The notes under the pieces: model-generated
The model's database searches: none
Seen by the model: the letters and a program-made list of their open reading frames with translations, nothing else
What the model was told of the DNA's origin: nothing
NCBI GenBank assembly: GCA_963662715.1
Contig: OY759724.1
Location: forward strand, 1,562,662-1,626,661
Direction of reading: 5' to 3'
DNA: 64,000 bases
From: Candidatus Omnitrophota bacterium
GTDB taxonomy: Bacteria > Omnitrophota > Gorgyraeia > Zapsychrales > JANLHA01
Made by a program: the position numbers and the translations under genes
Part shown: piece after piece, positions 3,234-55,172 of the stretch
Layout: every line of letters begins with the position of its first letter
How positions within the stretch are numbered: position 1 is the stretch's first letter

Positions 3234-4451
3234 ATGAAGATGAAATTTATTTTATGTCTTGCCCTGATCCTCGGCGCTTTCCCCGTGGCTTCCGTGTCAG
3301 CGGAGGATGCGGATGACCTGCGGATAATGGTGAGCGGAAACGGGACTTTTGCTTTTGATCTTTATCAGGCCGTTAAGCACAGGGACGGGAATTTGTTTTT
3401 TTCTCCTTACAGTGTTTCCACCGCTCTTGCCATGACCTACGCCGGTGCGCGGGGAGAAACCGCAAAGGAGATGGCCGATGTGTTGTCTTTTTCGTTAGAG
3501 GAAGAATCTTTGCACGCATCATTTTCTCTGCTGCAGTCAAACCTCAACGCTATTCAGGATAAAGGTCATATTACGTTAAATGTCTCCAACTCTTTATGGG
3601 CGCAGGAAGGGTATTGTTTTCTGGACGACTTTATCGGTTTGAATAAAAAATATTACGGAGCAGGGTTGCGTGTCGTTGATTTTTTGAAGCACACCGAGGA
3701 GGCCCGCCAAACGATAAATGCCTGGGTGGAAGACGAAACCCGGCAGAAGATACAGGAACTGCTTAAACCCGGGATGCTTGATTCCTTCACGACATTGGTC
3801 CTCTGCAATGCCGTTTATTTTAAAGGGGATTGGCTGACGCAGTTTGACAAGCAAAAAACAAAGGATGCTGATTTTTTTGTTTCTGCTGACAATGTCATTG
3901 AAGTGCCGACGATGAATCAGGAGTTGAAATTGCCGTATAAGGATTTTGACGGTTTCAGCGCCATATCTCTTCCGTATCAAGGCCGGGATCTGTCCATGAT
4001 CATTCTCCTGCCGGAAGAGAAGGACGGCTTAGCAGGGCTGGAAAAGAATTTGATTTATAATAATGTGAAAGGCTGGATAGATGGCCTCGCGGAAGCGGAG
4101 GAGGCGGACGTGCTGGTGAGTCTTCCTAAGTTTAAAACCACATCCGAGTTTGATTTGTCCAAGGTCCTTTCTGACCTGGGTATGCCGCATGCGTTTAGGG
4201 AGGCGGATTTTTCAGGGATGACCGGAAAAAAAGACCTGTTTATCAGCCGGGTGGTTCATAAAGCTTTCGTGGATGTCAACGAGGAAGGAACGGAAGCCGC
4301 TGCCGCAACGGCTGTCGTCATGACACGGACCGCGGTCATGAGCCCGCCGCGGGTGTTCCGTGCCGACCATCCTTTCCTGTTTTTGATCCGAGATAATCAA
4401 TCCGGATCGATTTTGTTTGTCGGGAGGATTGCGGATCCGCGCCGGACATAG
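3234..4451 (+). CDS. serpin (serine protease inhibitor) with signal peptide
   Basis: Signal peptide present. 'FFSPYSVSTALAMTYAGARGETAKEM', 'NAVYFKGDW' and C-terminal 'PFLFLIRDNQSGSILFVGR' are canonical serpin signatures. Reactive-centre-loop region '...GTEAAAATAVVMTRTAVMSPP'. Confidence 0.85.
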   Translation: MKMKFILCLALILGAFPVASVSAEDADDLRIMVSGNGTFAFDLYQAVKHRDGNLFFSPYSVSTALAMTYAGARGETAKEMADVLSFSLEEESLHASFSLLQSNLNAIQDKGHITLNVSNSLWAQEGYCFLDDFIGLNKKYYGAGLRVVDFLKHTEEARQTINAWVEDETRQKIQELLKPGMLDSFTTLVLCNAVYFKGDWLTQFDKQKTKDADFFVSADNVIEVPTMNQELKLPYKDFDGFSAISLPYQGRDLSMIILLPEEKDGLAGLEKNLIYNNVKGWIDGLAEAEEADVLVSLPKFKTTSEFDLSKVLSDLGMPHAFREADFSGMTGKKDLFISRVVHKAFVDVNEEGTEAAAATAVVMTRTAVMSPPRVFRADHPFLFLIRDNQSGSILFVGRIADPRRT

Positions 4452-6007: not shown

Positions 6008-7489
6008 ATGTGTCAGTGTATGAATCTTTTTTCTCATTTAGAAAACACTTCCAGCAAGCAAGTGGTTTTATATGCTGTGCTTTTTTTTGTCTTGACCCGC
6101 CTGCTGTTCCTGCTGGCCGGATTCCCGTTTTATTACTGTTTTAACATGCACCTTGATGAACAATTATGCAAAGATAATTTTCTGGAATGTCTTTATTATA
6201 CGCATCATAAGCCGCCGCTTTTTTTGCTGTTTCTTGGTCTTGTTTACCTGCTCCCCGCAACGTCTTTTATCCCGATTTATCATGCGATTTATCTGCTGAT
6301 GGGGATGATTTTCACCGTCACCCTTTTCGGGGTCATGGATTTGTTTGATATCCCGAGGAAATGGAGTGTCCCGCTGACCGCTCTTTTTATGCTGGGACCG
6401 TCGGTCATTGCCTATGAACATTGGCTTTATTATACTTATCCCTGCGCATTAATGCTTTGTTTGAGCGTGCTTTTTTTACAGCTTTATTTTAAATATGATA
6501 AGCACGGATATCTTTTTGCCTATTTCCTGCTTTTAGCTGTCCTTATTTTGACAAGAAGCTTGTTTCATCTCGCCTGGTTTATGCTTTTTGTCCTGATTCT
6601 GGCGGTGTATAGAAGAAGATTCTGGAAAAAAATTCTTATGGCAGCGGCCCTGCCTTTCCTGTTGGTTTTAGCGTTTTATGTGAAGAACGCCTTGCTTTTC
6701 GGTTTGTTTACCACAAGTTCCCAGGCCGGATTCGAATTGAGCATTATGGCGATGAACCAAATGCCAAATGAGCAAAGAGAACAATTGATCCGGGAAGGAA
6801 AGCTGTCCGAATTTGTCGCCATGGGGTCTCATGAATCCGTTGAGACTTATGAAAGATTTTATCCTCTGAAGGAGGCGGGCATCCCTATCCTGGATCAAAA
6901 AGTCAAATCCAACGGCCGTGTCAATTACAGCCATCAGATTTATCTGCCTGTTAACCGTCATTTTTTGGAAGATTCCTTTTACGTTCTAAAGCACTATCCC
7001 GGGTATTATCTGGAAGCCCTCCGGTATTCCACATTCAGATATTTACTGCCCGGCCCCAGCAAGCTTGGGGGGGAAGGACGCAATGCCCGGTTGATGAAGC
7101 GGATGTCTTTGTACGAGCGTGTTTATAATATGATTTTTCTGGGGCAAATCCTGCCGCGTACCCCTTGTTGGACATTTCGTCTGAATCACAGCCTTTATGA
7201 GGTGAGGGCGTCCCTGTTTTGGCTGGTCGGATTTCCTCTGCTTATGGTATGGATAGGCATATTCCTGGCAAGAATTCTTTTTGGGGATGATAAACACAAA
7301 AAGAATTTCATCCCCTTATTGTTTATGTGGCTTACGACGGGATATATTTCGTTTATTTCCATTGCCTTAAACGGCAATAACAGGCATCGTTTCCTGGTCG
7401 AGTCCTTTGTGGTGATCTTTGTGGGACTGTTCTTAACATCTTTGGGCTGTAGGTTCGCGGAAGGAGAGGATTCGGCCCGGGGAAATTAG
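6008..7489 (+). CDS. large polytopic membrane protein, possibly GT-C-type glycosyltransferase
   Basis: 493 aa, at least 10 hydrophobic helices. The first extracytoplasmic loop has a D-E pair ('HLDEQLCKD'), as in ArnT/PMT-like GT-C enzymes. Weak. Confidence 0.4.
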   Translation: MCQCMNLFSHLENTSSKQVVLYAVLFFVLTRLLFLLAGFPFYYCFNMHLDEQLCKDNFLECLYYTHHKPPLFLLFLGLVYLLPATSFIPIYHAIYLLMGMIFTVTLFGVMDLFDIPRKWSVPLTALFMLGPSVIAYEHWLYYTYPCALMLCLSVLFLQLYFKYDKHGYLFAYFLLLAVLILTRSLFHLAWFMLFVLILAVYRRRFWKKILMAAALPFLLVLAFYVKNALLFGLFTTSSQAGFELSIMAMNQMPNEQREQLIREGKLSEFVAMGSHESVETYERFYPLKEAGIPILDQKVKSNGRVNYSHQIYLPVNRHFLEDSFYVLKHYPGYYLEALRYSTFRYLLPGPSKLGGEGRNARLMKRMSLYERVYNMIFLGQILPRTPCWTFRLNHSLYEVRASLFWLVGFPLLMVWIGIFLARILFGDDKHKKNFIPLLFMWLTTGYISFISIALNGNNRHRFLVESFVVIFVGLFLTSLGCRFAEGEDSARGN

Positions 7490-15141: not shown

Positions 15142-15426
15142 ATGAAATTCCGAAGACCATATAATCCAGGGAGATATAGCCATTTGTACATCCATCACAT
15201 GCTTTATTTCCCCCGGACGAATACGGTTCTCGCTGCTGCCCGGGACAGCTTAACCGGAAAGATGTACTTGTTTATGGTGAGAAGAGAGCAAAAAAACGTA
15301 TATCTGCGGAACGCGCTTCAGGATATCTGGGAAGCCGTAACGGATAAAAATGAGTATCGGAGCATTCTGCAGCTTATGAACAAGGCCTTGGCCGGCAGGA
15401 AAGCCCTCGTCATTATTTGTAATTGA
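15142..15426 (+). CDS. small hypothetical protein
   Basis: 94-aa ORF. Weak support. Confidence 0.2.
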   Translation: MKFRRPYNPGRYSHLYIHHMLYFPRTNTVLAAARDSLTGKMYLFMVRREQKNVYLRNALQDIWEAVTDKNEYRSILQLMNKALAGRKALVIICN

Positions 15427-15506
15427 CCGTTGTTTTATTCTATCAGCTTGTTGAAGCTGTTCAATTGTTTAAGTGTCGGGAAAACCTTACTCAAGGAGGC
15501 GTTATT

Positions 15507-16559
15507 ATGATACGAAGAATCATGGCAAAGATTGCTGTTTGGGGAGCTGTTATTGGCCTTTTCTTTTCTCCCGCTGTTCACGCTGAACACCCGCGGGATA
15601 TCCGGGATTACATCCAGTCGCTGGAAGTCGGGGAGCCGGTTTACCATGATAACCTGACGATCATTCCTGTTTATTCAGCTCATATCCAGGACCGCAGGGA
15701 TTACACGACGCTGGATGATGCCCTGGCCAGCAATTGGCTTAGTGTTACGGAAATAGGACAGGGAGGTCAGGTGCCGCAGGTTGAACTCAACAATTACTCG
15801 AACAGAACGATTTTTATTATGGGCGGGGAGATTATTTCCGGAGGCAAACAGGACAGGATTATCGGCCGGGAGGTCCTTTTAAGCCCGAGAGCGCGTCGTG
15901 TTGTCGTTCCGGTCTATTGCGTCGAACAAAACCGCTGGCAGTATCAATCAGAAAAATTTTATAGTAAACAGAATCTGGGAACGTGGAATTTGAGATCAAC
16001 CGCTCAATATGCTCCGGTCGGCGCCCAGTCCGCCATCTGGGGCAATATCGAAACAGCGCAGAGGGAAATGGGCGTCCGTTCCAGCACCAATGCCTACCAG
16101 GATACGTATGATCAAAAAGGCGTCCGCGATAAAATCGTGAAACATGAACGGCATTTCAGCCGTATCCCGCAGCTGCGCCGCGATACGGTCGGAGTCGTCG
16201 TCGGCGTGGGAGGCCGCATCGTTAATGCCGACCTTTTCGCAAATCCGGCGCTGTTTCAGAAATTATGGCCTAAAATACTGAAATCATCGGCTTTGGCGGC
16301 CATCGGGTCTAGAAGGAGCGGTAGCGTAAGCCAGGAAGATGCGGCCTGGTTTATCCGCAGACTTTATGACACGTCTTATCAGAGGAAATCGGCTGTTGAT
16401 CTGGGGGCGGAATTTTCCGCTTACGAAGGCAGCAATGTTAATGTCATCGTTTGCCGGAATGCCGTCATTCATCTGTCGGCATTCTTGGATGAGACCGGCA
16501 CGGAGTATGTTCCTGTCAGAAGAGATACCGAACGGAGAATCCCTGTGATGAGAAGGTAA
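15507..16559 (+). CDS. secreted hypothetical protein
   Basis: AAGGAGG ribosome-binding site before the ATG at 15507. Signal peptide ..FFSPAVHA. 350 aa, beta-rich. No family recognised. Confidence 0.5.
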   Translation: MIRRIMAKIAVWGAVIGLFFSPAVHAEHPRDIRDYIQSLEVGEPVYHDNLTIIPVYSAHIQDRRDYTTLDDALASNWLSVTEIGQGGQVPQVELNNYSNRTIFIMGGEIISGGKQDRIIGREVLLSPRARRVVVPVYCVEQNRWQYQSEKFYSKQNLGTWNLRSTAQYAPVGAQSAIWGNIETAQREMGVRSSTNAYQDTYDQKGVRDKIVKHERHFSRIPQLRRDTVGVVVGVGGRIVNADLFANPALFQKLWPKILKSSALAAIGSRRSGSVSQEDAAWFIRRLYDTSYQRKSAVDLGAEFSAYEGSNVNVIVCRNAVIHLSAFLDETGTEYVPVRRDTERRIPVMRR

Positions 16560-22270: not shown

Positions 22271-24154
22271 TTGTCCAGCCTGCTTTTTATGTTTTATAAC
22301 GAGTTTTTTCCCTTTGATATGACCCGATCCCTATCTGTCAGAATCTCCCGCAACCTGTTTTTGGGGGTTCTTGTTCTTCTGTTTTTATATGAAGCCAGTT
22401 ATATTTTCTGGAGAGCAGGACATGCCTATCGTAACTTTAAGGCTGCCGGCTGGAATTATGATGAGCGGCGGCACGATTTTGCCGAAGCCCTGCCGTATCT
22501 GACATTAAAAAGGTTTTTGCCCGAAACTTCTCTTATAGATGTGCCTGCCCGGGGCTGGGATATAGAAAATGTCGCTGCCAAATATTTTCTTTACCCCATA
22601 AGGTTTCAAAAAGGCGGGAATTATATTTTAACTCATAAAGACGATGCCTCTCAGCCTCCTTCAAACTGGCAGAACAGGAGCCTTCCCCGGGGCATGAACG
22701 TGTATGCGAAGCCGGGCTATGGGTTTGCCGATCAAACGCGGCGCAATAGTGTTTCTTTGCCGTTGGGTATGACATTTATTTGGGTGTGTGTTTTTGCGGT
22801 TTTTAATATCCTGATCGGGCTGTCTTTCCTGAAAACATTGGAGTTCCCCTTGAGGGAAGGGGTGCCTTTATGGATTTGGGGATGTAGCTATCTGCTGGGT
22901 TTCCTGCTTTTGAGTGTTTCCCTTTTGGTGCTGGCTGCGGCAGGGAGAGGGTTGATCGATATGAATATCATCCTTATCGTTTGGGTGGCTGTTATATGGA
23001 TGGTATACATTGTCAAGCAAACGGTATGGGCTGATGTCTTTTCCGGGGGTGGGAGGATATCGCTCCCGGACCGGATTCCCTTAGCTTGTTTCAAGGAAAA
23101 CTCTCTGCACGGGTTTTTGATTTTTGTTTTAATCGCCGTCATCATCATTTCCGTTTTTACTCCGGTTGTGGACTGGGACGGGATGGCCCACTGGATCATG
23201 AAATCCAAAATTATGGCCTGTCAGCACCGGCTGGATTTTTCCTATACGCATAATAATTATCACCCTATCCTCTGGCCTGTTTACGTGGCGGTGCAATTTA
23301 TCATAAGCGGCGGAATTCATGATCAGTTCGCAAAATGGACGTCGGCATTCTTGTTTGTCGTCTTTGCCGGGTTCCTCTGGCAGGGTTTCCGGGCCGTCTC
23401 CGGGAAGGGGAAGACGGCGACTTTGTTCACCCTGGTCTTTGTCGTTCTGAGCTTTCGTGTGCCGGTGAAAGATTTTTGGTTTTACAATTACATTCATGCG
23501 AATGCCGAGAATTTATTTTTATCCTTTCTGACAGGAGTAACCCTCGCGGTCATGCTGTGGATCCGGTCGAGAGAAAAATGTTATTTGTCTTTGGCTGTTT
23601 TCTTCGGCGCGGGGTTGTCTTTGACGAAATTAGAAGGCGCAGCCACGGTCCTGCTTTTGGCCGTGCCGTTATGGGTGTTGTTTAAGAAGCTGAAGATGTC
23701 GAAAAAAGAAATACAGCTGTTATCTGCCTTGAGCTTCAGTGTCCTGCTGTTGGTGTTGTGGGTTCTTTGGGTGAACCTGCACGGTTATGGAGAGGCCACC
23801 CTGCATGCAGGCTCCGGGGTGACTTGGGAAAAGGCCGGTATTTTGACGCACAGGCTGACAGATTATATCCTGCATAATCAGTTTATTCTTTTGAATCTTA
23901 TTTTCTTTGGCGCGGCCCTTGTTGTTCCGAGGAACAGGTTGTGGACGGTGAGCGAGAAATATCTGCTTTTCAGTTCCGTATTGTTAATACTGTTTAGCTG
24001 TCTCGCCATGGCCGGTTGGCCGGCAGAAAAACTGAAGTCTACGTCTCTGGAGGTGTTTCAGAGACTCTTTCTTCATGCGGCTCCGGTGGTGGCGTTTTTT
24101 TGTGTCAGCCGGTTTTCGGGTGACTCCAAAGAAAGCGCGGAAGACTGTTGCTGA
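22271..24154 (+). CDS. large polytopic membrane protein, possibly GT-C-type glycosyltransferase
   Basis: 627 aa with about 14 predicted TM helices and loops. No soluble catalytic domain recognised. Confidence 0.45.
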   Translation: MSSLLFMFYNEFFPFDMTRSLSVRISRNLFLGVLVLLFLYEASYIFWRAGHAYRNFKAAGWNYDERRHDFAEALPYLTLKRFLPETSLIDVPARGWDIENVAAKYFLYPIRFQKGGNYILTHKDDASQPPSNWQNRSLPRGMNVYAKPGYGFADQTRRNSVSLPLGMTFIWVCVFAVFNILIGLSFLKTLEFPLREGVPLWIWGCSYLLGFLLLSVSLLVLAAAGRGLIDMNIILIVWVAVIWMVYIVKQTVWADVFSGGGRISLPDRIPLACFKENSLHGFLIFVLIAVIIISVFTPVVDWDGMAHWIMKSKIMACQHRLDFSYTHNNYHPILWPVYVAVQFIISGGIHDQFAKWTSAFLFVVFAGFLWQGFRAVSGKGKTATLFTLVFVVLSFRVPVKDFWFYNYIHANAENLFLSFLTGVTLAVMLWIRSREKCYLSLAVFFGAGLSLTKLEGAATVLLLAVPLWVLFKKLKMSKKEIQLLSALSFSVLLLVLWVLWVNLHGYGEATLHAGSGVTWEKAGILTHRLTDYILHNQFILLNLIFFGAALVVPRNRLWTVSEKYLLFSSVLLILFSCLAMAGWPAEKLKSTSLEVFQRLFLHAAPVVAFFCVSRFSGDSKESAEDCC

Positions 24155-30676: not shown

Positions 30677-32332
30677 TCAAAACTTCCGTTTAATAATGAT
30701 GGTGCCGTGATGTTCGACCCATTGCGCAGGAGTTTTCCAGTCACCGAAAGCGGCAACCTGCTCGAAATTATCAATAAAATATTGTGCCAGGAGCCGGCAA
30801 TGGGTCCTCCCGAAATAGCCGAGGCGGGACTCTCCGGTGTTTACACGGTTGGATAAGACGACGAACCGGACCCTCTGTTCCTGGAGGTCCTGAATGGTTT
30901 CGATTTCCTGTTCCACGGGAATGTGATTGTTGTAAAACAACATCAGCTGCCGTGTCGGGGCTATCCGGTCCGTTAAATAATAAAGAGGATCATACGGAAA
31001 GACAAAAAATGTTTCTTCCGGCTGAAGATGTTTCTGCAGGTAGGCGGCGGTCTGTTCGACAGTATTGATCCATTGCGGGCTGTTCTGAAAATAGATCTGC
31101 GCCCGGGGATGCGACCAAAAGCGCCCGGAGGCTTTGAGCTCTCCTACGTCCTTCCGTATGGATGTCAGGCCGAGGAAAACCGAGAAGAACAGGTACAGAA
31201 ACCATCTGAAATACCGGGAGCTGTATGTCGCCAGCAGGGAAAAGAGAGTGAACATAAATATGATGTGGAAAGGCGAGGCCCAGAAGAGCCGGTATTGAAC
31301 GCCGCTGAAAAGATATTCATGGAGATGCGTTATGGAAAACAGACCAAGGATAAGGATGGCTGTATAAACGTAGGGGGAAACTGTCTTGTTTTTTTTCTTT
31401 TGAAAAGTGTGCAGGACAGTGGATATGGCGGCGATGCTCAGCAGACTGAAAAACAGTTTTGAAAACCATGTTTTTGTGATTTCTTTTATGAGGTGTGTTT
31501 TGTAAACTTTCGCGGCCATAGATGCGGGCAGGCTGAACTGCCGGTCAGACCCCAGGAAGGGGAAGGATTGCCGGATGACATAAAAGGGAAGCCCTTTAAA
31601 GAACAGGTGGTAGAAGAAGGCTACCGCGAGAGGAAGAATGACGCCAGCCAGGAGGTAGAAAAGCTTTTTGTCAGAAAATTTTCTGCGGTGAATCAGGTCC
31701 GTTATCCCGACCGAAAGAGTGAAGCTGAAGAGCGAACATAACCCCATGTTCAGTTTTACAAAGGACAGCAGAAATATACCGAAAAGCCCTTTGTAAAGAG
31801 CAGAGGGTTTATTGTGAAAAAGGTACTGAACAAGAAAAAAGATGATCGCCGTAATTAACGTTATGCCTCCGGTATGATTATAGGTGAAAAAGAAGTAGGG
31901 GTAAAAATTCCAGAACCAGAGCGCCGCCAGCATGCCCCAGAAAGGACGGGCCAGGATGCGTAATGTGCGGTAAATGAAAAGACCGGCGGTGAGTTTCAAC
32001 ATGATTTCCCCGATAAGGATGCTCGGTATGGATAAGCCCAGGATCTTAAGGAAAAAGGCATAATAATATGGCATCAGCGGACCGTAAACCCACCAGTAAT
32101 CCTGATAAGGAACCTGTCCTTTTAACGTCGCTGCGTAACAGTAATAATCCCGGCCGTGATCCCCTTGGGCGATATTATTTTGATAGTTGTACAAAGGCCC
32201 CAGCATAATACATCCCAGTAAAATTAATACGGGAGGCAGGAATTGGGCCGTGGGGATTCTCCGGATACGGCGGAGAAAATTATGAAATTTATTTAAAATG
32301 AGGGATGTTTTCATATGAGTGTTTTCAAACAA
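30677..32332 (-). CDS. putative GT-C-fold glycosyltransferase (ArnT/PMT-like), paralog B
   Basis: Collinear with paralog A: 'GDHGRDYYCYAATLKGQVPYQDYWWVYGPLMPYYY...ILGLS'. C-terminal 'VLSNR...GYFGRTHCRLLAQY' matches A's 'ILSNR...GVFGRTYCPLIYQY'. Confidence 0.5.
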   Translation of the reverse strand: MFENTHMKTSLILNKFHNFLRRIRRIPTAQFLPPVLILLGCIMLGPLYNYQNNIAQGDHGRDYYCYAATLKGQVPYQDYWWVYGPLMPYYYAFFLKILGLSIPSILIGEIMLKLTAGLFIYRTLRILARPFWGMLAALWFWNFYPYFFFTYNHTGGITLITAIIFFLVQYLFHNKPSALYKGLFGIFLLSFVKLNMGLCSLFSFTLSVGITDLIHRRKFSDKKLFYLLAGVILPLAVAFFYHLFFKGLPFYVIRQSFPFLGSDRQFSLPASMAAKVYKTHLIKEITKTWFSKLFFSLLSIAAISTVLHTFQKKKNKTVSPYVYTAILILGLFSITHLHEYLFSGVQYRLFWASPFHIIFMFTLFSLLATYSSRYFRWFLYLFFSVFLGLTSIRKDVGELKASGRFWSHPRAQIYFQNSPQWINTVEQTAAYLQKHLQPEETFFVFPYDPLYYLTDRIAPTRQLMLFYNNHIPVEQEIETIQDLQEQRVRFVVLSNRVNTGESRLGYFGRTHCRLLAQYFIDNFEQVAAFGDWKTPAQWVEHHGTIIIKRKF

Positions 32333-32897: not shown

Positions 32898-33440
32898 GTG
32901 GAATTCAAACAATTCGTCCCTTCTTTGGTTTGTTTGTCCTGTGACGGCTGCTGCCGTTTTCATGACCCTGCGAGCGGCTGGCGGCCCAAACTGGGAGCCG
33001 GGGAGCAGAACTCGGCAGGGCCTTTGGCAGGCTGTCTGGATCTGGCCGCTGACAGCCGAGGGCTTGATGAAGAGGGCTTTATCCGTACGGAAGCAGACCA
33101 GGGCCAGCATCGTTGCCGTTTTCTTCAATTCAAGGACAATACCTGCCAGGTTTATTGTTTTCGGCCGTTTGAGTGTCAGCTTTATCCTTTTCTCCTGATA
33201 AAGGAAGGAAAAGATTTCTTGGTCGGCCTGCATTTGAGTTGCCCGTTTGTTCAGAAATTTTTTGGAAAAGAGGAACTGGAAGCGTATAAGCTGTACCTGA
33301 ATGATTTTTTGCGGCATCCGGAAATGATTCATTTTCTGCGGGATAATATTTCTTTGTTTGGCGATTATCAGGCATGGGCCCGGGAATGGGTCCCTGTCTT
33401 TTCCCTGACGGAATTGCTGTCATCAACATGTGATGGATAG
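32898..33440 (+). CDS. YkgJ-family Cys-cluster protein (putative Zn/Fe-chelating domain, UPF0153)
   Basis: 'VCLSCDGCCRFHDP...CRFLQFKDNTCQVYCFRPFECQLYPF' follows the CxxCxxCC...C...C..YPF pattern of the family. Confidence 0.65.
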   Translation: MEFKQFVPSLVCLSCDGCCRFHDPASGWRPKLGAGEQNSAGPLAGCLDLAADSRGLDEEGFIRTEADQGQHRCRFLQFKDNTCQVYCFRPFECQLYPFLLIKEGKDFLVGLHLSCPFVQKFFGKEELEAYKLYLNDFLRHPEMIHFLRDNISLFGDYQAWAREWVPVFSLTELLSSTCDG

Positions 33441-34326
33441 AGAACTTGAGCATTATAAGGATTTGGTTGATAAATATTTGCGTTTAAACCGCTATGCGCT
33501 TTGCGCGTATTCATTTGTTTCCGTTTTTCTCTGGAAAGATTTTTTTCAGTTTCATTTCGAGATTATTGACGGCCAGCTTTGTATCTTCGCTGAGAATGAT
33601 TCGGGGATTTTTCTTTATCTGCCTCCTTTAGGAAGGGAATTCAACCCGGAAACAGTGCGGGATTGTTTCGCTTTGATGGGGCGGAGGAATTCCGGGCAGG
33701 GGGTGACGAGGATAGAAAATGTTGACTGGCGTCAGATATCGTTTTTCTCCGGGGACAGCCTTTGTTATTTAAAGGGGTACGAATTTCTTTATTACAAAAA
33801 AGATATCATTCAGTTGAAAGGAAAATCGTATAAATCGAAACGTTCGGATTATAATCATTTTATCAAAACACATAAATACCTCTTTGCCCCTTTTTGTGAG
33901 ACCATGAAGGATGAATGTTTGAACCTTTACGACCAGTGGCAGGAGGACCGGGCCAGGAAGCACCCGGATGACATTTACCGTCATATGCTCTCGGAGAACC
34001 GTCAGGTTCATGCCCTGGGCATGCAGAACGCACGGTTATTGGATCTGGTCGGACGGGTCGTTATCGTGGACGGAGAGATTAAAGCGTATACGTTCGGGTA
34101 TTGGGTTCAGGATGCTGTTTTCTGTGTTCTTTTTGAAGTCGCGGACTGTACGTGTAAGGGGTTGCCGGTGTTTGTTTTTCATGAACTCTGTGCCGATGAG
34201 GAATTAGGGAGAGCCCGTTTTATCAATACGATGGACGATTTCGCCATGCCGCAGCTTGAGAGAACGAAGGAGTCCTTCCGGCCGATTATGAAGCTTCCGT
34301 CTTACACCGTTTCTCCGGCGTCGTAG
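33430..34326 (+). CDS. DUF2156-domain protein (homolog of the MprF/aaPGS aminoacyl-tRNA-dependent transferase domain)
   Basis: 'CAYSFVSVFLWKD', 'LKGKSYKSKRSDYNHF' and 'EIKAYTFGY' match the conserved blocks I recall for standalone DUF2156 / LPG-synthase C-terminal domains. Confidence 0.5.
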   Translation: MMDRELEHYKDLVDKYLRLNRYALCAYSFVSVFLWKDFFQFHFEIIDGQLCIFAENDSGIFLYLPPLGREFNPETVRDCFALMGRRNSGQGVTRIENVDWRQISFFSGDSLCYLKGYEFLYYKKDIIQLKGKSYKSKRSDYNHFIKTHKYLFAPFCETMKDECLNLYDQWQEDRARKHPDDIYRHMLSENRQVHALGMQNARLLDLVGRVVIVDGEIKAYTFGYWVQDAVFCVLFEVADCTCKGLPVFVFHELCADEELGRARFINTMDDFAMPQLERTKESFRPIMKLPSYTVSPAS

Positions 34327-37681: not shown

Positions 37682-38707
37682 ATGAAAAAATATATCTGGA
37701 TGATATGTCTTTTGATCTTGGGAGTTCCTTTGCGGCCGGCATTTTGTCAGGAGGAGGACACGTCATATGCCGCCGATGACGGTGGCGGGGGGGCGAAAGT
37801 CTGGCAGGAATCTGTGGGATCATTAAGAAGACAAACCGAAGCCTTGCTGGACCGTAACAGGGAATTAAACGGAGAATATACATCCTTGCAGGAAAAAATC
37901 ACGAATATTCAGATTAACATGAAGCAGATGAAAATCGATATTGAGAATTACCGTCAGGAAAATAAACAGTTGCAGGAGGCCCAGGAAAAGAATGCCCGGG
38001 AACAGAGAGAACTGGAAAAAAAGTTTTTGCAGGATCAGAAAGTTATTGAGCCCTTGGAGACACAAAATTCCGATTTAAAAAAGGAATGGATGGACGTCAA
38101 AAAGGAGACGGAGAAATGGCGGGAACGCGTTGCGGACCTTGAGCAGGAAAAACAGGAGTTGATCAGACAATTAAAAATGCGGGAAGAGTCTAAGGACGAT
38201 ATGTCGGGGGCCTTGGATGATGAGATAAAAAAATTGGACAGTATTTTAGCAGGCTATGAAGACGAAGAAGCGCTTTTGGATCTGGAGAAGCAGTCGTATG
38301 ACAAAGAAGAGGAAGAAATCGCCCGCATTAATGCCATGTTGGAAGGAGATATTGAAGATCTTGAATCTGAAGGGGATCAGCTGAAAGCTGAGATATCCGG
38401 GCAGAAAGAAGAGATCGCTCAAATCAAGCAGCCTAAAAAAGATGTCCGGATTTCTCCGGAAATGATTAAAGAGAAGAAAAGGCTTGAGGCTCATCTCGGT
38501 CAGTTGGAAAGTCAGCTGGAATCGATCAAAAAATCCGTAGAGGAAACGTCTTTGATTTTGGAAAAGAAACGCGCCTTGATGGATAAAATTATGGCCATAG
38601 ATTCTGAGAACCGTGAATTAAGGGCGCAGGTCTCGGATTTAATGGATCAATTAAAAGACCTGAAACAGGAATCCCCTTCTGCGGATGCTGATCCTGACGT
38701 GAAGTGA
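37682..38707 (+). CDS. secreted coiled-coil protein
   Basis: Signal peptide, then about 300 aa of E/K/Q/L-rich heptad-like sequence. Confidence 0.5.
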   Translation: MKKYIWMICLLILGVPLRPAFCQEEDTSYAADDGGGGAKVWQESVGSLRRQTEALLDRNRELNGEYTSLQEKITNIQINMKQMKIDIENYRQENKQLQEAQEKNAREQRELEKKFLQDQKVIEPLETQNSDLKKEWMDVKKETEKWRERVADLEQEKQELIRQLKMREESKDDMSGALDDEIKKLDSILAGYEDEEALLDLEKQSYDKEEEEIARINAMLEGDIEDLESEGDQLKAEISGQKEEIAQIKQPKKDVRISPEMIKEKKRLEAHLGQLESQLESIKKSVEETSLILEKKRALMDKIMAIDSENRELRAQVSDLMDQLKDLKQESPSADADPDVK

Positions 38708-52208: not shown

Positions 52209-52480
52209 GATAACCCGGCAGAAGGCGCAGGGGGTGTCCGCCTGAAAGGAAAAATGTGCCCAGAATCCTTGACAGGCTTTCGAGGCTATGGTAAGACCTA
52301 ATTAGTTGAGCCCGGTGAAACACCGGGAAGAAGGTTCAGGGAATGTAATAAAATCGTTATGGATTTATCTTGAGAATATATGAAGGAAAAATCAAACATT
52401 ATCGTTTGGGCTTTTTATTAGGGATTTTCCCCGGGGGATGAATCTGTTGAATGTCAGGTATCAATGAATGTTATAGAAAG

Positions 52481-52507
52481 GAACCTTAAAAACAAAGGTT
52501 CTTTTTT
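52481..52507 (+). terminator. terminator/attenuator-like hairpin (GAACCTT-loop-AAGGTTC followed by T6), 30 nt upstream of the ATP-grasp gene
   Basis: 7-bp stem at 52481-52487 and 52495-52501, 7-nt loop, TTTTTT at 52502-52507. Confidence 0.5.
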
Positions 52508-52536
52508 GTTTAAGGAAGGAAAGAATTTTACGCCGG

Positions 52537-53565
52537 ATGAAAATAGGTTTTACATATGATTTGAGATCAGACTGGATCTCGGCAGAACGAGATCCTTCTG
52601 ATGCCAACGCAGAATTTGATAAGCCGGAGACCATTGAAACGATTAGTCAGGCTCTCGCGTCCTGGGGGCATGAAGTCTGCCATATCGGGAACCTGGCGGG
52701 TCTCTTAGATCAACTGGATACGTTGGATGTGGACATCGTTTTTAATATTTGCGAAGGGCTGAGCGGGCGTAACCGGGAGTCTCAGGTCCCGGTTCTTCTT
52801 GAGGCAAGGAACATCCCTTATATAGGTTCCGACGGTTTGACGATGGCCTTGACGTTAGACAAGATAATGGCCAAAAAATGTTTTAGAGCCGATGGCATCC
52901 CCACGCCGCGTTTTTTTGTCGCCCGGGATTCTTCTTCCCTGAAATCCCGATGCCCCTTGGATTTTCCTTTGATCGTTAAGGCCTCTGCCGAAGGGACGTC
53001 TAAAGGCTTAACAGAAGCCTCCCGTGTGGAGGATATGCCGGCTTTAATACGGCAGGTTGATCATATAACCCGGACCTACCGGCAGCCGGCACTGATTGAG
53101 GAATTTATTGCGGGTCAGGAATTCACGGTGGCTGTGATCGGGAATGATCCCCCGCAGGCCATGCCGGTCGTGCAGATCAGTATTGATCAGCGGGAAGATC
53201 TGGGAGATAGATTTTTCACCTATGAAATGGTCGTTAATGAAGATATCGTGACATATGTTTGTCCTGCCCGTATTTCAACCGAACTGAAACAGACCCTTCA
53301 GGAATGGGCCGTGCGGACCTATACCTCGGTCGGGTGTTTGGATTTCGGCCGCGTCGATTTTCGGGTGGATCGGGAAGGACAGCCTTATGTGCTGGAAATT
53401 AATCCCCTGCCGGCGTTGGGGAAGAATGATATTTTTAACATTTTCCCGTTTACCATGGGGCTCACATATCAGGATATTATACAATGTATTCTTGAACATG
53501 GTCTTAAACGTTACGGCATGATCGATCAGCTGGCGGATAAGTTTCAGGCTGCTTTAATTCCCTGA
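52537..53565 (+). CDS. ATP-grasp ligase of the D-alanine--D-alanine ligase family
   Basis: 'MKIGFTYDLR' N-terminus, 'NICEGLSGRNRESQVP', 'FPLIVKASAEGTSKGL', 'EEFIAGQEFTVAVIG', 'YVLEINPLPALG' are Ddl-family ATP-grasp blocks. Confidence 0.7.
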   Translation: MKIGFTYDLRSDWISAERDPSDANAEFDKPETIETISQALASWGHEVCHIGNLAGLLDQLDTLDVDIVFNICEGLSGRNRESQVPVLLEARNIPYIGSDGLTMALTLDKIMAKKCFRADGIPTPRFFVARDSSSLKSRCPLDFPLIVKASAEGTSKGLTEASRVEDMPALIRQVDHITRTYRQPALIEEFIAGQEFTVAVIGNDPPQAMPVVQISIDQREDLGDRFFTYEMVVNEDIVTYVCPARISTELKQTLQEWAVRTYTSVGCLDFGRVDFRVDREGQPYVLEINPLPALGKNDIFNIFPFTMGLTYQDIIQCILEHGLKRYGMIDQLADKFQAALIP

Positions 53566-53651
53566 TGTCCCCGAAAGCGTGTGTCCTGCCTTTGAAAGAC
53601 AGGGGGAGAGGGGAATCCCTTGTGGATCACGGATAGTAAATCAGAAAAATT

Positions 53652-54839
53652 ATGACGACAAGCCCGGTTATCAAAAATATCAGCGAAAAGAAATTCTCCC
53701 CTTCTCAGGGAGAAGACTCTTCCTATGAATATGAATTATGGATTAAAGAAGCTTTCCCGGAGATCACGGAGCAGGAATGGGAAGACTGGGGCTGGCAAAT
53801 GCAGCATCGTTTTCGGACCCGGGAGGCCTTGTCGGAATTCATTCCTTTAACCCAGGAAGAAAAAGACGGTATAGAGCATTGCGGGCAGAAGCTCACAATG
53901 GCGATACCTCCGTATTTTGCCAGTTTGATAGACCCTCAGGATCCGCAGTGTCCGATACGCCGCCAGTGTGTCCCGACGAGCCGGGAGCTTGTCACGGCCC
54001 CGGAGGAAATGAGGGATCCCTGCGGGGAGGAGAAACATTCTCCCGCAAGAGGGCTGGTGCACCGCTATCCTGACCGGGTCTTGTTCCTCGTGAGCGATCA
54101 TTGCCCGATGTACTGCCGCCACTGTACCCGTTCCCGTATTTTAGGAGAAACAAAACAGCTCTTCAACTCTTCGACCTATGAAGAAGCTCTGCATTATATC
54201 CGGGAACATGAAGAGGTGCGTGACGTTCTGATTTCCGGGGGCGATCCTTTGTTGCTCAGCGACCACCTGCTGGAATACCTGCTCCAGAGTCTCAGGGCGA
54301 TTCCTCATGTCGAGTTTTTAAGGGTTGGGACCAGGGTCCCCGTGACCTTGCCTCAGAGAATCACGCCGGCTTTTGTCGATATGTTGAAGAAATATCACCC
54401 GCTGTGGCTGAGTATTCATTGCAATCATCCCAAAGAAATAACTCCCCGGGTGAAAGAGGCCTGTTGTTTGCTGGCGGACAGCGGCATCCCGGTCGGAAGT
54501 CAAACCGTGCTTTTAAAAGGCATCAATGATGATGCGGGCATTATCAAGTCATTAATGCATGAACTTCTTAAAATCCGGGTACGGCCTTATTATATTTACC
54601 AATGCGATCCCATAACCGGCTCCCGGCACTTTCGCGCTTCCATTGAAACAGGACTGCGTATTATGAATCAATTGCGCGGATACACGAGCGGGTATGCTGT
54701 CCCGACTTATGTCCTTGACGCCCCGGGCGGAGGAGGAAAGATACCTTTAAATCCGGATTATATATTGAAAAAAGAGAACGGAAAATATATTTTCAGAAAT
54801 TACGCCGGAGAAATTTATTTTTACCAGGATAACCCCTGA
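53652..54839 (+). CDS. KamA-family radical-SAM aminomutase (lysine-2,3-aminomutase-like)
   Basis: 'DHCPMYCRHCTRS' is the CxxxCxxC motif. Conserved KamA N-terminal region ('QMQHRFRT...LTQEEK') and C-terminal 'PYYIYQCDPITGSRHFR'. Confidence 0.8.
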   Translation: MTTSPVIKNISEKKFSPSQGEDSSYEYELWIKEAFPEITEQEWEDWGWQMQHRFRTREALSEFIPLTQEEKDGIEHCGQKLTMAIPPYFASLIDPQDPQCPIRRQCVPTSRELVTAPEEMRDPCGEEKHSPARGLVHRYPDRVLFLVSDHCPMYCRHCTRSRILGETKQLFNSSTYEEALHYIREHEEVRDVLISGGDPLLLSDHLLEYLLQSLRAIPHVEFLRVGTRVPVTLPQRITPAFVDMLKKYHPLWLSIHCNHPKEITPRVKEACCLLADSGIPVGSQTVLLKGINDDAGIIKSLMHELLKIRVRPYYIYQCDPITGSRHFRASIETGLRIMNQLRGYTSGYAVPTYVLDAPGGGGKIPLNPDYILKKENGKYIFRNYAGEIYFYQDNP

Positions 54840-54888: not shown

Positions 54889-54916
54889 TTTACAAATTTG
54901 GAATGTGTAATATAAT
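54889..54916 (+). promoter_or_regulatory. sigma70-like promoter for rpsU (TTTACA-16 nt-TATAAT)
   Basis: -35 TTTACA at 54889-54894, 16-nt spacer, -10 TATAAT at 54911-54916. GAAGGTGG ribosome-binding site precedes the rpsU ATG. Confidence 0.45.
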
Positions 54917-54980
54917 ACTCCTACTTATAAATAAGAACGGACAATTTATAAAGAAAATTGGAAGGTGGTGAATACTTTTT

Positions 54981-55133
54981 ATGGTTGAAGTTAAAATCAA
55001 TGATAAGAATGGCTTCGAAAAAGCTATGCGGTTATTTAAAAAACAATGCCAGAAAGAAGGCTTTTTAGTTGAACTGAAAGAAAGACGTTATTATTCCAAA
55101 CCTTCGGAGAAAAAGAGACGCAAAAAAAGCTGA
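54981..55133 (+). CDS. rpsU: 30S ribosomal protein S21 (short, 50 aa)
   Basis: 'MVEVKINDKNGFEKAMRLFKKQCQKEGFLVELKERRYYSKPSEKKRRKK' matches the S21 consensus (MP.IKVREN..FE.ALRRFKR.CEK.G.L.E.RRR..YEKP...RKR). Not in the ORF track because it is under 60 aa. Confidence 0.75.
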   Translation: MVEVKINDKNGFEKAMRLFKKQCQKEGFLVELKERRYYSKPSEKKRRKKS

Positions 55134-55140
55134 TTTTTCA

Positions 55141-55172
55141 GGCCCGGCAGAACTGCCGGGCCATGATTTTTT
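55141..55172 (+). terminator. intrinsic terminator after rpsU
   Basis: Perfect 10-bp stem GGCCCGGCAG/CTGCCGGGCC at 55141-55162, followed by ATGATTTTTT. Confidence 0.6.

What the first reader, a model, noticed from the sequence alone, without database searches (positions are those of the whole stretch)
52537..54839. Ddl-family ATP-grasp ligase paired with a KamA-family aminomutase
Established knowledge: KamA/EpmB-type radical-SAM enzymes make beta-amino acids (beta-lysine, beta-glutamate, beta-arginine), and ATP-grasp Ddl-like enzymes ligate amino acids into dipeptides. Seen in sequence: the two genes are adjacent, same strand, 86 nt apart, behind a long structured leader. Inference: the pair probably synthesises a beta-amino-acid-containing dipeptide, for example an osmolyte or peptidoglycan/secondary-metabolite precursor, rather than acting in lysine fermentation or EF-P modification. 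There is no EpmA-like partner and no lysine degradation genes nearby.
Basis: partly seen in the sequence, partly recalled or inferred. Interest (0 to 1): 0.6.

Follow-up and report, generated by a model that had tools for sequence, protein, structure and literature searches.

The report
Beta-lysine synthase paired with peptide ligase
An Omnitrophota bacterium carries a conserved two-gene operon, an enzyme that very probably makes beta-lysine and an uncharacterised relative of the cell-wall D-Ala-D-Ala ligase, which most likely builds a small beta-lysine-containing peptide of unknown role.

Summary
A 342-aa Ddl-like ATP-grasp gene (52537-53565) and a 395-aa KamA-family radical-SAM gene (53652-54839) lie on the same strand, 86 nt apart, in an Omnitrophota genome.

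- **Aminomutase:** it is lysine-type. All CsLAM catalytic and lysine-binding residues are kept, and it scores closest to AblA, far from EpmB. It lacks the Zn site and the C-terminal domain.
- **ATP-grasp:** it has a Ddl fold but is not a Ddl. It falls below every Ddl cutoff, and H63, K215, Y216 and S281 are replaced.
- **Linkage:** the pairing is not chance. Every Omnitrophota locus with enough flank has it. A fuller module (KamA, two paralogous ATP-grasps, small GNAT) recurs in Chloroflexota, Desulfuromonadales, Syntrophales, Bacteroidota and other groups.
- **Myxococcota:** the ATP-grasp pair is instead followed by an S58 (beta-aminopeptidase family) peptidase, and the pair is often fused.
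- **Leader:** it is not notably structured. It carries a conserved promoter, sequence boxes and a terminator, so it is probably an attenuator.

Best reading: synthesis of a beta-lysyl small peptide. The product and its role are unproven. No description was found in the literature library searched. I rate it a new variant of a known kind.

The parts
52270..52298 (+). Promoter-like element: TTGACA (52270-52275), a 17-nt spacer, then TAAGAC (52293-52298) with an upstream TG (52290-52291).
   Evidence: The same TTGACA-N17-TA[AG]A[AC]A element with an upstream TG is conserved upstream of the ATP-grasp gene in more than 20 Omnitrophota loci. It fails the generic sigma-70 scan because the last -10 base is not T, so it is inferred from conservation only.
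52380..52421 (+). Candidate leader mini-ORF (MKEKSNIIVWAFY*) overlapping the conserved core TTTGGGCTTTTTATTAG.
   Evidence: L001 and L004 have leader ORFs ending ...IVWAFY* and ...CRAFY*, with a synonymous GCT>GCC change and a TAG>TAA stop swap. The core sequence is conserved in the alignment. Support is weak because there are only 3-4 sequences.
52476..52507 (+). Terminator-like hairpin (GAAAGGAACCTT / AAGGTTCTTT) running into a T6 run, 30 nt before the ATP-grasp start codon.
   Evidence: It forms a 15-bp stem in the MFE and centroid folds. A hairpin plus T-run at the same position is present in nearly all Omnitrophota loci. The GGAACC..GGTTCC form occurs 6 times upstream of the gene against once elsewhere.
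52537..53565 (+). ATPg1: a Ddl-fold ATP-grasp ligase of an uncharacterised subfamily. Predicted to be a beta-lysine-utilising amide ligase.
   Evidence: Pfam Dala_Dala_lig_C E 5e-35. The best Ddl model scores 181 bits against a cutoff of 243. AF2 model pLDDT 89, with Foldseek top hits all Ddl at 21-27 % identity. The family signature TDEDTNEGRNREQ... is invariant.
53566..53651 (+). 86-nt intergenic spacer within the presumed operon.
   Evidence: No promoter-like or + strand terminator-like site was found in it. The two genes abut directly in L001.
53652..54839 (+). KamA-family radical-SAM/PLP enzyme, predicted lysine 2,3-aminomutase. It is a short form without the Zn site and C-terminal domain.
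   Evidence: TIGR00238 scores 357 bits (cutoff 199) and AblA TIGR03820 scores 496.8 bits (cutoff 525.4, model positions 2-360 of 417). The alignment to CsLAM 2A5H is gap-free, E 2e-138, with C125/C129/C132, R134, D293, D330 and K337 kept and C268 changed to D.

Best explanation
The two genes form an operon for a beta-lysine-containing small peptide.

1. **KamA makes beta-lysine.** KamA (53652-54839) is a lysine 2,3-aminomutase. It uses a [4Fe-4S] cluster, SAM and PLP to convert L-lysine to beta-lysine. This step is strongly supported by residue conservation, but no activity has been shown.
2. **ATPg1 ligates it.** ATPg1 (52537-53565) is a Ddl-fold ATP-grasp ligase with an altered substrate pocket. 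By inference it activates a carboxylate as an acyl-phosphate and forms an amide bond that incorporates beta-lysine. Most likely beta-lysine is the carboxyl donor, that is, the N-terminal residue. It would be held by the invariant acidic cluster (D22, E26, D28, E73, E81) that replaces the Ddl D-Ala1 site. The product would be a beta-lysyl-X dipeptide.
3. **The window has the reduced form.** Related genomes carry a second paralogous ATP-grasp, often fused to the first, and a small GNAT. The ancestral product may therefore be a tripeptide or an N-acetylated peptide. This window's clade has the two-gene form.
4. **Expression is probably attenuated.** The operon probably has its own promoter and a leader terminator just upstream of the start codon. 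The signal is unknown.

The physiological role is not established. Candidates are a cytoplasmic solute or buffer in the manner of N-epsilon-acetyl-beta-lysine, NAGGN or carnosine, or an envelope precursor.
For: **Aminomutase**
- KamA family membership and a gap-free alignment to CsLAM, with the CxxxCxxC motif, Arg134, Asp293, Asp330 and Lys337 all conserved.
- The same residues are kept in 45 of 45 complete cluster-linked KamAs.
- The model ranking is AblA 497 > Glu-2,3 466 > Arg-2,3 428 >> EpmB 243 bits. The orthologue in L009 passes the AblA equivalog cutoff (536 against 525).

**Linkage**
- The pair is present in all Omnitrophota loci with sufficient flank. KamA + ATPg1 + ATPg2 + GNAT occurs in Dehalococcoidia, Anaerolineae, Syntrophales, Desulfuromonadales, Bacteroidota and Thermokryptus. 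Kiloniellaceae has it with the GNAT about 2 kb away, and Gemmatales has it with no GNAT found. KamA lies upstream in some lineages and downstream in others.
- The two genes abut in L001.

**Ligase is not Ddl**
- Scores are below cutoff.
- H63>E73, E68>R78, K215/Y216>V/V and S281>D298, while the ATP/Mg residues R255, D257, E270 and N272 are kept.
- The fold is confirmed as Ddl-like.

**Small-peptide chemistry**
- At least 16 Myxococcota-type loci have ATPg-ATPg followed by a Peptidase S58. That family comprises beta-aminopeptidases (PMC9570944).
- 49 of the 149 listed representatives other than P0172 are fused double ATP-grasps of at least 500 aa.

**Regulation**
- Conserved promoter, sequence boxes and terminator lie specifically upstream of ATPg1.
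Against: - No product, substrate or activity is known for any member of this ATP-grasp subfamily, and no paper describing the module was found.
- Myxococcota ATPg1 orthologues share 25 of 26 signature residues with the Omnitrophota enzyme but have no KamA within 6 kb. ATPg1's own substrate may therefore not be beta-lysine, or KamA is encoded elsewhere in those genomes.
- The roles of Asp293 and Asp330, and of the Lys/Asn replacements in glutamate 2,3-aminomutase, rest on my recollection of Lepore et al. 2005 and Ruzicka & Frey 2007. I could not retrieve either paper.
- In Omnitrophota the pair is embedded among translation and housekeeping genes (era, rpsU, EF-G paralogue, mnmE). That is equally compatible with a protein-modification role.
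- The window's KamA is just under the AblA cutoff and lacks the Zn site and C-terminal domain.
Confidence: 0.5

Rival explanations
1. Protein beta-lysylation. KamA supplies beta-lysine, and the ATP-grasp plays the role that the LysRS paralogue EpmA plays in E. coli, attaching it to a lysine of EF-P or to another translation protein. The mechanism would resemble RimK- or LysX-type ATP-grasp protein ligases.
For: In Omnitrophota the pair lies in a block of translation-related genes. rpsU is immediately downstream in the window. An EF-G paralogue and a YchF-like gene follow KamA in about 10 three-gene loci. The GNATs in other phyla are weakly RimI-like. The module's sporadic phyletic distribution resembles that of the EF-P modification systems (my own knowledge).
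Against: KamA scores far below the EpmB model (243 against a cutoff of 369) and far higher on AblA. No efp gene was found in the window or in any of 85 related loci. The ATP-grasp is closest in sequence and fold to small-molecule Ddl enzymes, not to RimK or LysX. The association with an S58 aminopeptidase and the fusion of two ligase domains fit small-peptide synthesis better. Flanking housekeeping genes differ between Omnitrophota clades.
Confidence: 0.15
2. Cell-wall role. The ATP-grasp is a divergent Ddl paralogue that makes a D-Ala-X or beta-Lys-containing building block for peptidoglycan, for example a stem peptide or cross-bridge.
For: The nearest sequence and structural relatives are all D-Ala-D-Ala or D-Ala-D-Lac ligases. 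Public annotation calls close relatives 'D-alanine--D-alanine ligase'. The pair is near-universal and vertically conserved in Omnitrophota.
Against: It is below every Ddl cutoff (181 against 243). It lacks the omega-loop Lys215/Tyr216 and has Asp where Ddl Ser281 binds the D-Ala2 carboxylate. No mur, dcw or ddl context appears in the window or in the related loci. The same module occurs in Dehalococcoidaceae and Dehalococcoidales MAGs (L038, L053), a group known to lack peptidoglycan (my own knowledge). Beta-lysine has not been reported in peptidoglycan, to my knowledge.
Confidence: 0.1
3. Iterative ligase. The ATP-grasp polymerises beta-lysine into a cationic oligo- or poly-(beta-lysine), or decorates a polymer, by analogy with cyanophycin synthetase or RimK.
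For: The invariant acidic residues in the substrate-binding domain, and the Omnitrophota-specific Asp298 at the position that binds the acceptor carboxylate in Ddl, would suit an acceptor whose nearby group is an amine rather than a carboxylate. The reduced two-gene form would need no second substrate pathway.
Against: No Ddl-type ATP-grasp is known to act iteratively (my own knowledge). Two distinct, often fused paralogues in most lineages suggest two different, defined ligations. No export or anchoring genes are linked.
Confidence: 0.1
4. The two genes are functionally unrelated neighbours kept together only by local synteny.
For: In the window's clade the whole era-nth-mgtE-ATPg1-KamA-rpsU-purH-folC-mnmE block is syntenic, so adjacency within that clade alone proves little.
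Against: The linkage persists in different flanking contexts within Omnitrophota and in unrelated phyla, with rearranged order and added partners.
Confidence: 0.03

Closest known systems
AblA/AblB (methanogens) and KamA/YodP (Bacillus): lysine 2,3-aminomutase plus beta-lysine N-acetyltransferase, making the compatible solute N-epsilon-acetyl-beta-lysine
   Same: A KamA/AblA-type lysine 2,3-aminomutase encoded next to the enzyme that derivatises beta-lysine by amide-bond formation. The window's KamA scores best on the AblA model, and the L009 orthologue passes it. In other phyla the module also contains a GNAT.
   Different: The partner here is an ATP-dependent Ddl-fold ligase, not an acetyl-CoA-dependent GNAT. 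The GNATs found in other phyla are about 160-aa RimI-like proteins that did not match an AblB model at E<=1e-5. The KamA lacks the Zn site and C-terminal domain. No link to salt is known.
D-alanine--D-alanine ligase (Ddl, VanA/B/C) family
   Same: Same three-domain ATP-grasp fold (TM 0.7-0.85), Pfam Dala_Dala_lig_C, and conserved ATP/Mg residues R255, D257, E270 and N272.
   Different: Only 21-27 % identity. Below all NCBIfam Ddl cutoffs. The N-terminal GG.S.E.EVS motif is replaced by TYDL...DANAEFD.P.T. H63>E, E68>R, K215/Y216 are lost, and S281>D. There is no cell-wall gene context.
EpmB/EpmA (YjeK/PoxA): EF-P beta-lysylation
   Same: A KamA-family aminomutase supplies beta-lysine to an ATP-dependent ligase.
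   Different: The aminomutase is not EpmB-like (243 bits against a cutoff of 369). The ligase is an ATP-grasp (acyl-phosphate chemistry), not a class II aaRS paralogue (acyl-adenylate chemistry). No efp is nearby.
PylB/PylC (pyrrolysine biosynthesis)
   Same: A radical-SAM enzyme rearranges lysine, and a Ddl-like ATP-grasp then ligates the product to another amine (my own knowledge, used as an analogy).
   Different: PylB is not a KamA-family, PLP-dependent aminomutase. No PylD or pylT context is present. No PylC structure appeared among the sequence matches to solved structures.
Carnosine synthase (ATP-grasp beta-Ala-His ligase), with beta-aminopeptidases DmpA/BapA acting on such peptides; Ngg (GNAT plus ATP-grasp) of the NAGGN osmolyte pathway
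   Same: ATP-grasp synthesis of a small peptide with an N-terminal beta-amino acid. The S58 beta-aminopeptidase family is linked to the same ATP-grasp family in Myxococcota. GNAT plus ATP-grasp pairing occurs for an N-acetylated dipeptide solute (my own knowledge).
   Different: No sequence relationship beyond the ATP-grasp superfamily was tested or shown. These are analogies of logic only.

Membership tests
KamA family radical SAM/PLP aminomutases (TIGR00238) | Whole-protein score above the curated cutoff | tested here: met
   357 bits against a cutoff of 199.2.
KamA family radical SAM/PLP aminomutases (TIGR00238) | CxxxCxxC [4Fe-4S]/SAM motif and the PLP-binding lysine (CsLAM Cys125/129/132, Lys337) | tested here: met
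   All are conserved in the gap-free alignment to 2A5H and in 45-47 cluster-linked homologues.
Lysine 2,3-aminomutase sensu stricto (AblA / clostridial KamA) | Equivalog model TIGR03820 above cutoff | tested here: not met
   496.8 against 525.4. Only model positions 2-360 of 417 match because the protein ends early. The orthologue in L009 passes at 536.5.
Lysine 2,3-aminomutase sensu stricto (AblA / clostridial KamA) | Asp293 and Asp330 (binders of the lysine epsilon-ammonium) and Arg134 (carboxylate binder) | tested here: met
   D319, D356 and R160 in the query, kept in 45 of 45 homologues. The residue roles are from memory of the CsLAM structure paper and could not be retrieved.
Lysine 2,3-aminomutase sensu stricto (AblA / clostridial KamA) | Inter-subunit Zn site (Cys268 plus C-terminal Cys375/377/380) and the C-terminal domain | tested here: not met
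   Cys268 is Asp, and the protein ends at the CsLAM-equivalent residue of about 369. Cys268 is absent in 44 of 45 homologues.
Lysine 2,3-aminomutase sensu stricto (AblA / clostridial KamA) | Conversion of L-lysine to beta-lysine | not testable with these tools
   Needs an anaerobic enzyme assay.
EpmB (EF-P beta-lysylation aminomutase) | Equivalog model TIGR03821 above cutoff | tested here: not met
   243.5 against 369.3.
EpmB (EF-P beta-lysylation aminomutase) | Genomic association with efp and/or epmA | tested here: not met
   No efp hit in the window or in 85 loci. No aaRS-like ORF was found among the window ORFs of at least 277 aa that were scanned. A genome-wide test was not possible.
Glutamate 2,3-aminomutase | Equivalog model TIGR04368 above cutoff, with Lys/Asn in place of Asp293/Asp330 | tested here: not met
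   466 against 650. Asp is retained at both positions.
Arginine 2,3-aminomutase | Equivalog model TIGR04468 above cutoff | tested here: not met
   428 against 600.
D-alanine--D-alanine ligase (Ddl) | ATP-grasp Ddl fold and C-terminal domain; ATP/Mg ligands (DdlB R255, D257, E270, N272) | tested here: met
   PF07478 E 5e-35. Foldseek top 50 are all Ddl or Van ligases. R272, D274, E287 and N289 are invariant.
D-alanine--D-alanine ligase (Ddl) | Score above the curated Ddl subfamily or equivalog cutoffs | tested here: not met
   Best are NF002378 at 181.4 against 243 and TIGR01205 at 152.4 against 245.65. All equivalogs are far below cutoff.
D-alanine--D-alanine ligase (Ddl) | Substrate and catalytic residues: His63, omega-loop Lys215/Tyr216, Ser281 (D-Ala2 carboxylate), N-terminal Glu15 motif | tested here: not met
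   H63>E73, K215/Y216>V/V in a variable loop, S281>D298, and the N-terminal motif is replaced. The residue roles are from my own knowledge of DdlB.
D-alanine--D-alanine ligase (Ddl) | Cell-wall (mur/dcw) genomic context, or being the sole ddl of the genome | tested here: inconclusive
   There is no mur or dcw context in the window or the loci. Whether a canonical ddl exists elsewhere in the genome could not be checked.
AblA/AblB-type N-acetyl-beta-lysine system | Adjacent beta-lysine N-acetyltransferase (GNAT) | tested here: not met
   No GNAT of the cluster type is in the window (tblastn). Omnitrophota loci lack it, while the other phyla have a small RimI-like GNAT.

The most novel reading that the evidence does not exclude
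Omnitrophota, and several other phyla through the fuller module, use a previously unrecognised pathway. In it a Ddl-derived ATP-grasp ligase attaches radical-SAM-made beta-lysine to a macromolecular target, such as EF-P, a ribosomal protein or an envelope component. That would be an ATP-grasp counterpart of EpmA-type beta-lysylation, expressed under a novel leader attenuator. A weaker version is also open: the product is a new class of beta-lysyl peptide metabolite that is a core, phylum-wide trait of these ultra-small bacteria.
Probability: 0.15. Interest if true: 0.8.

Novelty: new variant of a known kind. Interest (0 to 1): 0.55.

Why it matters
Both enzyme families are well known, but this combination was not described in any paper the searches could reach. 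It is widespread: 987 clusters at 50 % identity are closer to the query than any solved Ddl. It is present in every Omnitrophota locus that could be checked, a phylum with no cultured model and poorly understood physiology. Public databases label these ligases 'D-alanine--D-alanine ligase', which is probably wrong and misleads cell-wall inference in candidate phyla. Identifying the product would add a beta-lysine-based metabolite or modification to bacterial biochemistry. It would also assign a function to a large orphan branch of the Ddl family, including the Myxococcota ATP-grasp/ATP-grasp/S58 unit. Finally, it would supply a new ligase for beta-amino-acid peptides. The operon-specific leader, with its promoter, conserved boxes and sequence-conserved terminator, is a candidate new attenuator.

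Tried and rejected
- **Riboswitch in the leader.** Rfam gave nothing at gathering threshold on the window and three sister loci, and only sub-threshold noise in the permissive scan. The fold z-score is -1.7. RNAalifold on 16 leaders supports only the terminator stem. A complex structured riboswitch is therefore not supported.
- **Covariance model of the three-gene-clade leaders.** It finds four non-training leaders weakly (E 0.02-0.19), all upstream of ATPg1, but not the window's leader at E<=1. Homology of the window's leader to that element is unproven.
- **Leader-peptide idea for the GGAGG/AAATTGGAAAAA box.** The mini-ORFs (MEK*, MKK*, MEKIG* and others) vary in length, and the spacing from GGAGG is 11-14 nt. 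I rejected it as a conserved peptide. The separate ...AFY* ORF in the window's clade remains open.
- **Glutamate or arginine aminomutase.** Rejected on scores and on Asp293/Asp330.
- **Bona fide Ddl.** Rejected on cutoffs and residues.
- **efp linkage.** No hit.
- **Literature.** Nine searches were counted, of which seven looked for the module or the LAM residue roles and found neither; two further attempts were rejected on syntax. The CsLAM structure paper, the glutamate 2,3-aminomutase paper and a radical-SAM review could not be retrieved.
- **Naive ORF clustering in high-GC loci.** It produced spurious long antisense ORFs (cluster 2), which I ignored.
Full report
**Observation.** The window has two + strand ORFs exactly as reported: 52537..53565 (342 aa) and 53652..54839 (395 aa), separated by 86 nt. 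The first matches Pfam Dala_Dala_lig_C (E 5e-35). The second matches Radical_SAM plus LAM_C and passes the curated KamA-family model TIGR00238 (357 bits, cutoff 199). Identical proteins exist on a 3.36-Mb contig, and the nearest relatives are all Candidatus Omnitrophota. The flanking genes are era, a YjeF_N protein, nth and mgtE upstream, and rpsU, purH, folC and an mnmE-like gene downstream. rpsU has its own strong promoter-like site at 54889-54916 and a terminator at 55141-55162. No promoter-like or terminator-like site lies in the 86-nt spacer, and in the sister genome L001 the two genes abut. They are therefore very probably co-transcribed.

**The aminomutase.** Against NCBIfam the protein ranks AblA lysine 2,3-aminomutase (496.8 bits), then glutamate 2,3-aminomutase (466), arginine 2,3-aminomutase (428), AblA_like_2 (342) and EpmB (243.5). 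All of these are below their equivalog cutoffs. The AblA shortfall (cutoff 525.4) arises partly because only model positions 2-360 of 417 are matched. The orthologue in the three-gene Omnitrophota locus L009 passes (536.5).

The alignment to the only solved relative, Clostridium subterminale LAM (2A5H), is gap-free over 360 residues (E 2e-138). It maps Cys125/129/132, Arg134, Asp293, Asp330 and the PLP lysine Lys337 onto identical residues. The Zn ligand Cys268 is Asp, and the protein stops before the C-terminal Cys cluster. Across 45 complete KamA genes linked to this ATP-grasp family in any phylum, Asp293, Asp330, Lys337 and Arg134 are invariant, and Cys268 is kept only once.

From my recollection of the CsLAM structure paper and the glutamate 2,3-aminomutase paper, the two aspartates bind the lysine epsilon-ammonium and are replaced by Lys/Asn in glutamate aminomutases. 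I could not retrieve either paper to confirm this. I conclude that this is a lysine-type 2,3-aminomutase of a short, Zn-less form. It is clearly not EpmB-like.

**The ATP-grasp.**
- The best Ddl models score 181 and 152 bits against cutoffs of 243 and 246, and every equivalog is far below threshold.
- An AlphaFold model (pLDDT 89, pTM 0.90) finds only Ddl and Van ligases as top structural neighbours (TM 0.7-0.85) at 21-27 % identity. The fold is therefore Ddl.
- In the HMMER alignment to Yersinia Ddl (DdlB numbering), the ATP/Mg residues Arg255, Asp257, Glu270 and Asn272 are kept. His63 is Glu73, Glu68 is Arg78, the omega-loop Lys215/Tyr216 are Val/Val in a variable segment, and Ser281 is Asp298.
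- The family has its own invariant N-terminal motifs, TYDL..DW...DP.DANAEFD.P.T and FNICEG..GRNRESQVP.
- A 26-position signature is shared almost perfectly by all orthologues. Asp298 is specific to Omnitrophota ATPg1, and the paralogue ATPg2 and the Myxococcota copies keep Ser there.
- An exhaustive search of 1.84 billion representatives gives 987 clusters at E<=1e-30, which is closer than any solved Ddl. Of the 149 listed representatives other than P0172, 49 are at least 500 aa with two ATP-grasp units.

This is an uncharacterised branch of the Ddl family, not a D-Ala-D-Ala ligase.

**Linkage and the fuller module.** A scan of one genome per species returned 80 loci. tblastn tabulation shows four patterns:
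1. **ATPg1-KamA**, as in the window, inside the same housekeeping synteny (window, L001-L006, L023, L024, L026, L028, L031).
2. **ATPg1-ATPg2-KamA** in most other Omnitrophota. ATPg2 is a 37 %-identical paralogue, and the trio is often followed by an EF-G paralogue and a YchF-like gene.
3. **KamA + ATPg1 + ATPg2 + a roughly 160-aa RimI-like GNAT** in Dehalococcoidia, Anaerolineae, Syntrophales, Desulfuromonadales, Bacteroidota and Thermokryptus, with KamA either first or last. Kiloniellaceae (L065) has the GNAT about 2 kb away, and Gemmatales (L080) has no GNAT within reach.
4. **A tandem ATP-grasp pair without KamA** in Myxococcota and allies. In at least 16 of these loci it is directly followed by a Peptidase S58 gene.

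Every Omnitrophota locus that extends far enough has KamA. The two exceptions, L008 and L032, end at a contig edge. Clustering of all neighbouring ORFs found no further conserved partner, and no efp. The window contains no second ATP-grasp of this family and no such GNAT.

**Interpretation.** Conserved adjacency through gene-order changes and across phyla shows a functional unit. KamA should supply beta-lysine. The Ddl-fold ligase should use ATP to make an acyl-phosphate and an amide bond. The cluster of invariant acidic residues in the domain that binds the D-Ala1 amino group in Ddl (D22, E26, D28, E73, E81) suits a diamino acid as carboxyl donor. I therefore favour beta-lysine as the N-terminal residue of a beta-lysyl-X peptide. 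This assignment is inference.

Two independent observations favour a small peptide over a protein target. First, the two paralogous ligases are frequently fused. Second, in the lineages without the KamA link, the pair is coupled to an S58 peptidase, a family whose characterised members (DmpA, BapA) are beta-aminopeptidases acting on peptides such as carnosine (PMC9570944).

The logic resembles several known systems: AblA/AblB (an amide derivative of beta-lysine as a solute; PMC3543383), carnosine synthase, the GNAT/ATP-grasp enzyme of the NAGGN pathway, and PylB/PylC. The last three comparisons come from my own knowledge. The role is open. The phylum-wide, vertically inherited presence in Omnitrophota argues for core physiology rather than an accessory secondary metabolite.

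**Rivals.**
- **Protein beta-lysylation.** An ATP-grasp in place of EpmA is attractive because of the translation-gene neighbourhood (rpsU, EF-G paralogue, era, mnmE) and the RimI-like GNAT. Against it, KamA is far from EpmB, no efp is linked, and the ligase resembles small-molecule enzymes.
- **Peptidoglycan role.** This is disfavoured by the missing Ddl residues, the lack of mur or dcw context, and the presence of the module in Dehalococcoidales MAGs, a group known to lack murein (my own knowledge).
- **Iterative poly-beta-lysine synthesis.** This cannot be excluded.
- **Chance adjacency.** This is effectively excluded.

A genome-wide check for a canonical ddl, EpmA or the EF-P loop residue could not be done with the capped scans.

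**The leader.** The 328-nt gap is not significantly structured (z = -1.7) and matches no Rfam family. It is, however, a conserved regulatory region. It has a TTGACA-N17-TAAGAC promoter with an upstream TG (52270-52298), a conserved core (TTTGGGCTTTTTATTAGGG, 52406-52424) and a 15-bp hairpin plus T-run (about 52476-52507), followed by a purine-rich SD-like stretch and the ATG.

In the three-gene clade the equivalent leader is about 110 nt long. It consists of a near-identical promoter, an A/U-rich stretch, GGAGG, a spacer of 11-14 nt, AARTTGGRAAAAAT, and a terminator whose stem sequence (GGGCTC...GRGCCC) is itself conserved. Consensus folding supports only that stem. The boxes and the sequence-specific terminators occur almost exclusively upstream of ATPg1: 12 against 4, 16 against 1 and 6 against 1 in 0.9 Mb.

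A covariance model built from 16 such leaders detects four other leaders weakly, all upstream of ATPg1 (L027 about 460 nt upstream). It gives no hits elsewhere in 515 kb and does not detect the window's leader at E<=1. In the window's clade the conserved core coincides with the end of a mini-ORF: MKEKSNIIVWAFY* at 52380-52421...IVWAFY* in L001 and ...CRAFY* in L004. I regard transcription attenuation, protein- or ribosome-mediated, as likely, with the effector unknown.

**Verdict.** The pair is the reduced form of a widespread, undescribed module made of a lysine 2,3-aminomutase and Ddl-derived ligases. Novelty: a new variant of a known kind. Interest is moderate (0.55). The chemistry is plausible and the enzyme families are familiar. 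However, a large, mis-annotated orphan ligase family, a phylum-wide trait of Omnitrophota and an operon-specific attenuator are all directly testable.

Noticed in passing
window 52270-52536; L007-L022 upstream of ATPg1 (e.g. L009:5733-5850, L021:5831-5947): An operon-specific conserved leader. It has a near-identical TG-extended promoter, a GGAGG box, an AARTTGGRAAAAAT box and a terminator whose stem sequence (GGGCTC..GRGCCC, or GGAACC..GGTTCC in the window's clade) is conserved rather than covarying. It often sits 10-20 nt before an ATG that has no SD. There is no Rfam match, so it is a candidate novel attenuator.
   Followed up: partly
window 52380-52421; L001 and L004 leaders: A mini-ORF ending ...VWAFY* (window, L001) or ...CRAFY* (L004) overlaps the most conserved leader core. 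L004 differs by a synonymous change and a stop-codon swap. It could be a regulatory leader peptide, but the sample is too small to tell.
   Followed up: partly
L009:9211-11172 and equivalents in L012, L013, L015, L016, L020-L022, L041: A 650-aa EF-G paralogue passes an EF-G subfamily model and is below the EF-G2 equivalog. It lies downstream of KamA in about ten three-gene Omnitrophota loci, directly after it in most, and is often followed by a YchF-like gene. This could be a translation link or mere synteny.
   Followed up: partly
L048:4966-8752 (Myxococcus eversor) and at least 15 other Myxococcota/Bdellovibrionota-type loci: A conserved three-gene unit of two tandem Ddl-like ATP-grasps (an apparently continuous 746-aa ORF in L048) followed by a Peptidase S58 (DmpA/BapA beta-aminopeptidase family) gene. 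No KamA lies within 6 kb.
   Followed up: partly
representative proteins P0248-P0347: About a third of the closest family representatives are proteins of 500-790 aa with two ATP-grasp units, that is, natural fusions of the two paralogues. The ATPg1-like half can be at either end.
   Followed up: no
L001:12469-12771: In the closest sister genome a P-II (GlnB-type) nitrogen-regulatory gene is inserted between KamA and rpsU. It is absent from the window at the same place.
   Followed up: no
window 33430-34326: A 298-aa ORF matches the C-terminal domain of phosphatidylglycerol lysyltransferase (LPG_synthase_C, the MprF-C-like domain). This is another lysine-transfer-type enzyme, 19 kb upstream.
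   Followed up: no
window 3234-4451: A full-length bacterial serpin (Pfam Serpin, E 4e-125) in an Omnitrophota genome.
   Followed up: no
window 6008-7489, 22271-24154, 30677-32332, 37682-38707: Four large ORFs (341-627 aa) have no Pfam family at E<=1e-5.
   Followed up: no
window 15423-16559: An ORF with an ARPP-1 domain (ARG and Rhodanese-Phosphatase-superfamily-associated protein), next to a histidine kinase and a VWA protein on the opposite strand.
   Followed up: no
window 54889-55162: rpsU (54981-55136) has its own near-consensus promoter (TTTACA-16-TATAAT) and a strong GC-rich terminator. It is therefore a separate transcription unit from the ATP-grasp/KamA operon, although no terminator separates KamA from it.
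   Followed up: yes
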